Positions 60 through 125 of a stretch of 64,000 bases of DNA are shown here, piece by piece (positions within the stretch are counted from its first letter, which is position 1; the number at the start of each line of letters is the position of its first letter). The position numbers and the translations under genes are program-made. The notes below the pieces were generated by a model. The model ran no database searches and was not told where the DNA came from. It was given only the letters and a program-made list of their open reading frames with translations. The stretch covers positions 234,980,001-235,044,000 of the forward strand of contig OZ024740.1 of NCBI GenBank assembly GCA_964016885.1, given 5' to 3'. This DNA comes from Eledone cirrhosa (Eukaryota).

Positions 60-125
60 TATTTTGTCTGAAGATGGCATAACATATTGTTAATATGATA
101 TCCCTGAAATATATATAACGAAATA
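60..125 (+). ncRNA. Type I hammerhead ribozyme motif (family A) in a Penelope-like terminal repeat
   Basis: CTGAAGA 68-74, hairpin helix II (catatt-gtt-aatatg), GAAA 106-109, palindromic atatatat helix III, AUA triplet, helix I tattttgt/acgaaata; flanks match 34940-35070 and 49980-50040. Confidence 0.75.

What the first reader, a model, noticed from the sequence alone, without database searches (positions are those of the whole stretch)
60..125. AT-rich hammerhead ribozyme family with covarying helices at five loci
Seen: the layout helix I - CTGA(T/A)GA - long helix II - GAAA - atatatat/atatgtat - A - helix I occurs at 60-125(+), 9008-9074(-), 9646-9712(+), 34965-35029(+) and 47454-47514(-). 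Helix II differs in sequence between loci yet always pairs (catatt/aatatg, gtactg/cagtac, accaa/ttggt, gtaccaa/ttggtac). Helix I shows a compensatory A-U to G-C change at 66/119. Established: Penelope-like element terminal repeats carry type I hammerheads with a short palindromic helix III that act as dimers. Inference: this is a structurally selected variant with a long helix II, an AUA cleavage triplet and a TA-microsatellite-like helix III. It belongs to the GIY-YIG element at 47409-50136.
Basis: partly seen in the sequence, partly recalled or inferred. Interest (0 to 1): 0.75.

Follow-up and report, generated by a model that had tools for sequence, protein, structure and literature searches.

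The report
Hydra-type Penelope hammerheads with C·C mismatch
The five motifs are copies of the hammerhead RNA motif already known from the ends of Penelope-like jumping genes, here in tens of thousands of genomic copies that keep an unpaired C·C in one arm while the paired bases around it change; they likely cut their own RNA only as pairs, which is untested.

Summary
All five motifs lie at the stated coordinates, but two are identical arms of one insertion, so there are four independent sequences. They are type I hammerhead motifs in the pseudo-LTRs of Hydra-clade Penelope-like elements (PLEs), an association published by Craig et al. 2021. The scan has noted such motifs before, in this genome and others. 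A strict pattern finds 44,607 copies genome-wide (control 0); a sister group adds up to 14,730 (control 38). Helices I and II covary strongly across families (14 of 18 pairs change on both sides). A long helix II and an AUA triplet each have precedent. Not found in print: a C·C mismatch at the fourth position of helix II (42,638 C·C against 1,440 C·other), kept with an (AU)4 palindromic helix III across families. Cleavage is untested. Insertion ends lie about 50 and 145 nt past the predicted cut, so the copied RNA was likely uncut or re-joined. Verdict: a real, modest variant of a known kind.

The parts
60..125 (+). Type I hammerhead motif, family A (helix I 60-67/118-125, core 68-74, C·C at 78/102, predicted cut after 117)
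1..165 (+). Right arm of a 367-bp palindromic pLTR mini-insertion (family A) that starts just before the window and ends in (TA)n about 48 nt after the predicted cut
   Evidence: (L176)
8870..9765 (.). Family B inverted (back-to-back) pLTR insertion between TA-rich repeats; arms 8961-9265 and 9455-9759 are 97.4% identical; the left arm carries the 'tail' extension (outer limits read by eye)
9008..9074 (-). Hammerhead motif, family B, predicted cut after 9016; identical to 9646-9712
9646..9712 (+). Hammerhead motif, family B; helix III palindrome AUAUGUAU (central U·G/G·U in a dimer); predicted cut after 9704
34929..35170 (+). Solo 5'-truncated pLTR of family C with tail, ending in (TA)n
34965..35029 (+). 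Hammerhead motif, family C, predicted cut after 35021
47402..48111 (-). Inverted pLTR/3' arm of the family D element, 93% identical to 49366-50049
47454..47514 (-). Hammerhead motif, family D, predicted cut after 47462; U·U at helix II position 2 next to the C·C
48111..48747 (+). 5'-truncated Hydra-type ORF remnant: end of the RT region, CxCX5C linker, GIY-YIG-type endonuclease with CxxC before E; a frameshift near 48650 separates the N...CxH end
   Evidence: Pfam finds no family
49366..50136 (+). Sense 3' pLTR of the family D element; the hammerhead core is removed by a 20-nt deletion at 49960/49961; ends in (TA)n about 146 nt after the equivalent of the cut site

Best explanation
The motifs are type I hammerhead sequences in the terminal repeats (pLTRs) of at least four families of Hydra-clade Penelope-like retrotransposons, and they likely self-cleave after AUA only when two copies pair through their palindromic helix III. 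Shown: core, helices I and II with covariation, an invariant C·C in helix II, sense position downstream of an RT-endonuclease ORF, direct pLTRs 3.7-4.1 kb apart in full-length copies, and insertion into (TA)n. Inferred: in a read-through transcript of a full element (pLTR-ORF-pLTR) the two motifs exchange helix I strands and form an 8-bp AUAURUAU duplex. Double cleavage by standard hammerhead chemistry (established knowledge) would release a unit-length RNA carrying the whole ORF, which starts about 190 nt after the upstream cut. Copy ends lie about 50 or 145 nt downstream of the cut and copies run through the cut site, so the reverse-transcription template must be uncut or re-ligated. The five window copies are solo or back-to-back remnants without a same-strand partner and are likely inert.
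For: Copy number 44,607 against control 0. In 81 copies collected without requiring the core, each catalytic position is kept in 77-81 of 81, while N7, the free position, is the most variable core position (71 U, 4 A, 4 G, 2 C). On 64 aligned copies 85.6% of cells pair (shuffled 69.8%, slid controls 34-50%), 14 of 18 pairs have two-sided changes, and the covariation score is 0.543 against 0.270 shuffled. RNAalifold independently predicts the same helices and leaves the C·C open. The centre of helix III is A or G in 44,607 copies and C or U in 256; both A and G keep a dimer duplex. Closing helix III within one molecule costs 1.7-3.5 kcal/mol, and the double-hammerhead fold is 8.9-9.9 kcal/mol better than two closed monomers. 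Full-length direct tandems: L173 (390-bp pLTRs, 96.7%, cuts 3,676 nt apart) and L167 (431 bp, 97.9%, 4,097 nt apart). Hydra motifs RWR, DKT, CxCX5C, CxxC-E and N-CxH are present and match section 11 of PMC8557442.
Against: No cleavage or expression data exist here. Rfam hammerhead models do not match. The canonical G10.1-C11.1 pair is a minority (A-U 63, G·U 58, G-C 24 of 155). The double-hammerhead fold is the minimum-energy fold in only 1 of 4 artificial tandems; in the other three a rival fold is 0.9-4.1 kcal/mol lower. Single motifs fold no better than shuffles. There is no clear genomic scar at the cut: 78 copies join (TA)n there against 37 and 22 at two control positions with shorter TA homology. 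In 33 of 33 copies anchored downstream, hammerhead sequence continues upstream of the cut site. Published PLE hammerheads cleave weakly even as dimers (PMC4209133); in the anole PLE cleavage needed protein and was dispensable for insertion in vitro (PMC11167929). Relatedness inflates the shuffle test; at family level the two-sided changes are about a dozen events, not hundreds.
Confidence: 0.72

Rival explanations
1. The fold is conserved mainly as a protein-binding or template-positioning structure for the element's reverse transcriptase; cleavage is slow, protein-assisted or incidental to transposition.
For: Copies run through the cut site (33 of 33) and end about 50 or 145 nt downstream (91 of 171 at 40-70 nt, 45 of 171 at 110-150 nt). 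Anole PLE core mutants still insert (PMC11167929). A non-canonical 10.1-11.1 pair and the slow AUA triplet (PMC1636495 abstract) suggest low activity.
Against: The conserved positions are exactly the catalytic ones, with N7 free, across families whose proteins are only 40-52% identical. A binding site would not be expected to copy the hammerhead signature so exactly.
Confidence: 0.17
2. The motif works as a monomer: a 2-bp helix III with a 4-nt loop is rescued by a tertiary contact between the C·C of helix II and an extended helix I.
For: The C·C sits where loop II lies in canonical hammerheads (recalled). Helix I extends past a bulge or internal loop in the predicted folds of families A, C and D. 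Axolotl HHR_Amex2, with a 2-bp helix III, cleaves 22% as a monomer (PMC7229834 passage).
Against: A monomer loop should vary freely, yet its positions are fixed (81, 80 and 81 of 81) and the fourth alternates only between A and G, which keeps the palindrome. Monomer helix III is unfavourable.
Confidence: 0.09
3. The motifs are chance AT-rich look-alikes amplified by a repeat, with no selected structure.
For: Weak single-sequence folding z-scores; AT-rich helices pair easily; no Rfam hit.
Against: Two-sided changes between families in both helices, including a GC-rich helix I in the sister group. Slid controls are far lower. 14 of 14 metagenome matches to the same pattern show no pairing in either helix, which is what chance matches look like.
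Confidence: 0.02

Closest known systems
Hammerheads of Hydra-clade Penelope-like elements (Craig et al. 2021, PMC8557442; read: passages, sections 11 and 12, supplement parts 1-2 of 59 and searched passages), including Hydra-1_Obim of Octopus bimaculoides
   Same: Type I, sense strand, near the 3' end of a C-terminal-EN PLE that inserts in (TA)n; palindromic helix III; often U before GAAA; helix II of 7 bp in several entries; the same protein motifs
   Different: The Hydra entries of File S2 have helix III starting AC, mostly a 9-nt palindrome, with GUH triplets, and I saw none with a C·C in helix II. Here helix III is an 8-nt AUAURUAU, the triplet is AUA, and helix II is 3 bp + C·C + 5 or more bp. 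The motif is RWR, not RWK, and the unit is 3.7-4.1 kb against 'generally <3 kb'.
[quoted passage not shown]
   Same: [quoted passage not shown]
   Different: They report a conserved G10.1-C11.1 pair and an extra nucleotide after A9; here the first pair is mostly A-U or G·U (121 of 155) and the interruption is a symmetric C·C. Copy number here (about 59,000) exceeds their 2,000-9,000.
Dimer-cleaving hammerhead variants of PLEs (Lunse, Weinberg, Breaker; PMC5785218; not held, known only through a passage of review PMC6765202)
   Same: Very short palindromic stem III, PLE-associated, cleave as dimers
   Different: Could not be compared; their variant set may already contain the C·C form.
ELVd (+) hammerhead (PMC1636495; abstract only)
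   Same: Natural AUA triplet
   Different: Viroid ribozyme; AUA was the slowest of four triplets tested.
Non-LTR retrozymes (PMC7229834, passages; bioRxiv 10.64898/2026.07.22.740005, part 1 of 5)
   Same: Type I hammerheads in very high copy number (126,247 in axolotl); dimer-dependent forms; proposed to derive from PLEs
   Different: Retrozymes are short head-to-tail tandem repeats. The copies examined here are solo, back-to-back or flank an RT-EN ORF.

Membership tests
PLE type I (dimer-type) hammerhead | Core CUGANGA ... GAAA ... UH, with N7 free | tested here: met
   5 of 5 window motifs; 77-81 of 81 per position and N7 71 of 81 in copies not selected on the core
PLE type I (dimer-type) hammerhead | Helices I and II supported by compensatory change | tested here: met
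   14 of 18 pairs with two-sided change; covariation 0.543 against 0.270 shuffled and at most 0.136 slid
PLE type I (dimer-type) hammerhead | Very short, palindromic helix III | tested here: met
   AUAUAUAU in 95 and AUAUGUAU in 54 of 155; pyrimidine at the centre 256 against 44,607
PLE type I (dimer-type) hammerhead | In the pLTR, sense to an RT-EN ORF | tested here: met
   L091, L099, L100, L167, L172, L173
PLE min-HHR consensus of Cervera 2014 | G10.1-C11.1 pair with an extra nucleotide after A9 | tested here: not met
   First pair A-U 63, G·U 58, G-C 24 of 155; U before GAA is also common in published Hydra hammerheads
PLE type I (dimer-type) hammerhead | Self-cleavage after N17 as a dimer | not testable with these tools
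   Only folding energies
Rfam hammerhead families | Score at or near the family threshold | tested here: not met
   No hammerhead family among 108 matches with E<=10 in the window, nor among 4 in 9560-9780
Hydra clade of PLEs | RWK and DKT motifs in the RT N-terminus | tested here: met
   DKT in L093, L100, L167, L170, L172, L173; RWR (R for K) in L093, L100, L167, L170, L173
Hydra clade of PLEs | C-terminal EN with CxCX5C linker, CxxC before E, CxH after N | tested here: met
   Window 48111-48747 and L093, L100, L167, L173. Pfam gives no GIY-YIG hit, so the domain name rests on motifs and a by-eye comparison with the supplement alignment
Hydra clade of PLEs | Insertion into (TA)n | tested here: met
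   136 of 171 copies reach a TA run at 40-70 or 110-150 nt past the cut
Hydra clade of PLEs | Generally short (<3 kb) | tested here: not met
   Cut-to-cut units of 3,676 and 4,097 nt in 2 of 2 direct tandems measured; described as a tendency, not a rule
Hydra clade of PLEs | Absence of CCHH; placement in the Hydra clade on an RT tree with published members | not tested
   The published sequences were seen only as text in the supplement
Non-LTR retrozyme | Head-to-tail tandem repeats of 150-450 bp, each with a hammerhead | tested here: not met
   Window copies are solo or inverted; not surveyed genome-wide

The most novel reading that the evidence does not exclude
A lineage of Hydra-clade hammerheads has replaced the usual loop II contact with a C·C internal mismatch three pairs from the core, used as a tertiary or RT-protein docking site. 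The shared (AU)4 helix III and shared helix I would let different families cleave each other's RNA as mixed dimers in a genome with about 59,000 copies.
Probability: 0.3. Interest if true: 0.55.

Novelty: new variant of a known kind. Interest (0 to 1): 0.3.

Why it matters
Hammerheads in PLE terminal repeats are known, so the class is not news. The set is useful as a natural mutagenesis series. About eight sequence groups with proteins as little as 40-50% identical rewrote most helix pairs and the whole loop II, yet kept a C·C at one position and an A/G-only palindrome centre. That points to an undescribed contact in minimal PLE hammerheads, which are thought to lack tertiary interactions and cleave poorly, and it makes the contact testable with one point change. 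The motifs are invisible to Rfam, so such genomes hold tens of thousands of unannotated ribozyme motifs.

Tried and rejected
(1) Rfam at E<=10 on the window and on 9560-9780: no hammerhead hit. (2) Pfam on the two endonuclease ORFs: no family. (3) Idea that the cut product's (UA)n 3' end primes insertion at (TA)n: rejected. Only 4 of 171 copies have a TA run within 10 nt of the cut, and at least 2 of those are internal family sequence; ends cluster at about 50 and about 145 nt. (4) A genomic scar of cleavage (lead from e1-10347120): 78 TA-joined copies at the cut against 37 and 22 at control positions, out of some 37,404 copies of the downstream 34-mer. The patterns differ in families covered and in TA homology, so this is inconclusive and no support. 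In the 30 of 78 inspected, about 4 were TA expansions inside an otherwise present hammerhead (read by eye). (6) Metagenome scan for the motif: 14 matches, none pairing and none with a PLE protein, so chance. (7) An apparent mixed-family tandem (L175) is two separate insertions. (8) A flank-based tree of 52 copies was rough (bootstrap not settled, long branches meet) and my pattern-based family labels C, D and E mix on it; used only qualitatively. (9) Lunse et al. is not held. Searches with no description of the C·C form in what I read: hammerhead + C-C mismatch + stem II gave 0 papers; hammerhead + Penelope + helix II + mismatch gave 4; hammerhead + cephalopod gave 4; hammerhead + Penelope + octopus gave 5. 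No covariance model was built and R-scape was not available.

Full report
Observation. The five motifs are present as described. Two are identical arms of one inverted insertion, which leaves four independent sequences, here called families A (60-125), B (9008-9074 and 9646-9712), C (34965-35029) and D (47454-47514). A strict hammerhead descriptor finds 5 hits in the window (4 of these loci plus one other motif) against 0.01 per shuffle. The window is G000:C1:234980001-235044000 of a 3.0-Gb animal genome; I did not determine the organism. A pattern fixing helix I, the core and helix III, with helix II left free, matches 44,607 places with a control of 0. A pattern excluding that helix I finds 14,730 more (control 38). 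Most of the first 100 listed belong to a sister group with a GC-rich helix I but the same helix III and AUA triplet.

What carries them. The element at 47402-50136 is a 5'-truncated PLE. It has an inverted arm (47402-48111, 93% identical to 49366-50049), an ORF remnant (48111-48747) and a 3' pLTR whose own hammerhead has lost its core. Near-complete relatives show a single RT-endonuclease ORF with the hammerhead downstream in sense. L173 and L167 are direct tandems with 390- and 431-bp pLTRs and predicted cuts 3,676 and 4,097 nt apart. The proteins carry RWR, DKT, CxCX5C, CxxC before the conserved E and CxH after the conserved N. These are the marks given for the Hydra clade in section 11 of Craig et al. 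2021 (PMC8557442), whose supplement lists Hydra elements with hammerheads and (TA)n targets, including one from Octopus bimaculoides. Pfam does not recognise the endonuclease, and I did not place the RT on a tree with the published set. Family D's protein is 76% identical to C, 60-62% to A, 45% to B and 46-52% to the sister group. The other four loci are therefore remnants of other families: a 367-bp palindrome crossing the window start, a back-to-back pair, and a solo pLTR.

Structure under selection. I extracted 251 motifs from the loci held at that point, 188 unique. I dropped 8 unclassified ones and the 25 fetched because they lack the C·C, leaving 155. Helix II positions 1-3 and 5-9 pair in 123-152 of 155; position 4 pairs in 1 of 155 and is C·C in 142. 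On an alignment of 64 selected copies, 14 of 18 pairs have two-sided changes, 85.6% of cells pair (69.8% shuffled, 34-50% slid) and the covariation score is 0.543 (0.270 shuffled). RNAalifold predicts the same helices and leaves the C·C open. Copies are related, so the count that matters is at family level, where about ten pair positions switch Watson-Crick type. Helix I of the main group was partly fixed by my search patterns; its covariation comes from the contrast with the sister group. In 81 copies gathered without requiring the core, catalytic positions are kept in 77-81 while N7 varies.

Genome-wide, C at helix II position 4 faces C in 42,638 copies and another base in 1,440; the exceptions listed look like scattered decay. 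The C·C also holds in the sister group (31 of 35). It is absent from 20 of 20 inspected matches to the ordinary Hydra-type helix III pattern, of which the genome holds about 10,000 (10,069 matches, control 581). Within a family, conservation is only descent. Across families, neighbouring pairs and all of loop II changed while this unpaired position did not, which argues for constraint. One paired position (A-U at 7) is equally fixed. What the C·C does is unknown; a tertiary or protein contact is my inference.

Mechanism. Helix III can form only 2 bp in a monomer, at a cost of 1.7-3.5 kcal/mol, but it is an 8-nt palindrome. In artificial tandems with a short linker the double-hammerhead fold beats two closed monomers by 8.9-9.9 kcal/mol, although it is the best fold in only 1 of 4. 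The palindrome centre is A or G in 44,607 copies and C or U in 256. G occurs in several lineages and gives tandem U·G pairs in a dimer. This fits the dimer model of Cervera and De la Pena 2014 (PMC4209133) and the review account of Lunse et al.. Copy ends fall at 40-70 nt (91 of 171) or 110-150 nt (45 of 171) beyond the cut. This resembles the two reverse-transcription starts and the 'tail' shown for an anole PLE (PMC11167929). In 33 of 33 copies anchored downstream, hammerhead sequence continues upstream of the cut site, with an intact core in 25. The template was therefore uncut or re-ligated; my data cannot separate the two. Joins to (TA)n at the cut are rare and only about 2-3.5 times those at control positions (78 against 37 and 22), so I claim no cleavage scar and no role for helix III in targeting. 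In this window no motif has an intact same-strand partner in its own element, and a transcript through a back-to-back pair would likely fold as one long hairpin.

Comparison and novelty. It works like the dimer-type PLE hammerheads and meets their features except the G10.1-C11.1 pair and the untested cleavage. A long helix II (PMC4209133; File S2 of PMC8557442), an AUA triplet (PMC1636495, abstract) and very high copy number (PMC7229834, passages) all have precedent. I found no description of the C·C plus (AU)4 plus AUA combination in the searches, but Lunse et al. and the supplementary figures of Cervera 2014 were not seen. Earlier notes of this scan report Hydra-clade hammerheads in this and other genomes. 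Verdict: real, a new variant of a known kind, interest 0.3.

Noticed in passing
   Followed up: no
window 45512(-) and 7868(-): A third hammerhead-like family with a 6-nt helix III (AGAACU, CUA triplet); 45512 passed the strict descriptor.
   Followed up: no
window 44125(+) and 44748(+): Possible further minimal hammerheads; 44125 has a perfect 8-nt palindrome ACAAUUGU and a GUU triplet, 44748 looks decayed.
   Followed up: no
window 39228-40139 (-): Open 303-aa fragment of a different Hydra-type element (35-42% identical to families A-D); no hammerhead core was found downstream of it.
   Followed up: partly
genome-wide, loci L183-L202: About 10,000 matches to the ordinary Hydra-type helix III pattern (mostly ACC-NNN-GGU, GUA triplet), many with long helix II and none of 20 with the C·C.
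   Followed up: partly
genome-wide, loci L105-L134, L165-L169: Sister group with GC-rich helix I sharing the C·C, (AU)4 helix III and AUA; in L165 and L166 two different sister families sit back to back.
   Followed up: partly
window 18828-24246 (+) and 50425-53271 (+): LINE-type elements: a 498-aa ORF1 and a 996-aa endonuclease-RT ORF2 (Pfam Exo_endo_phos and RVT_1), and a second, broken relative.
   Followed up: no
window 46753-46833 and 45738-45781: Two near-perfect DNA palindromes or hairpins (arms of about 37 and 22 bp; the first extends further) that match miRNA models below threshold.
   Followed up: no
window 10210-12538: Long low-complexity tandem repeat, open in several frames.
   Followed up: no
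flanks of the motifs, families A, C and D: Helix I is predicted to extend past a bulge or internal loop into a further stem of about 10 bp (TTTATAARAC/GTTTTATAAA); a candidate partner for the C·C.
   Followed up: partly
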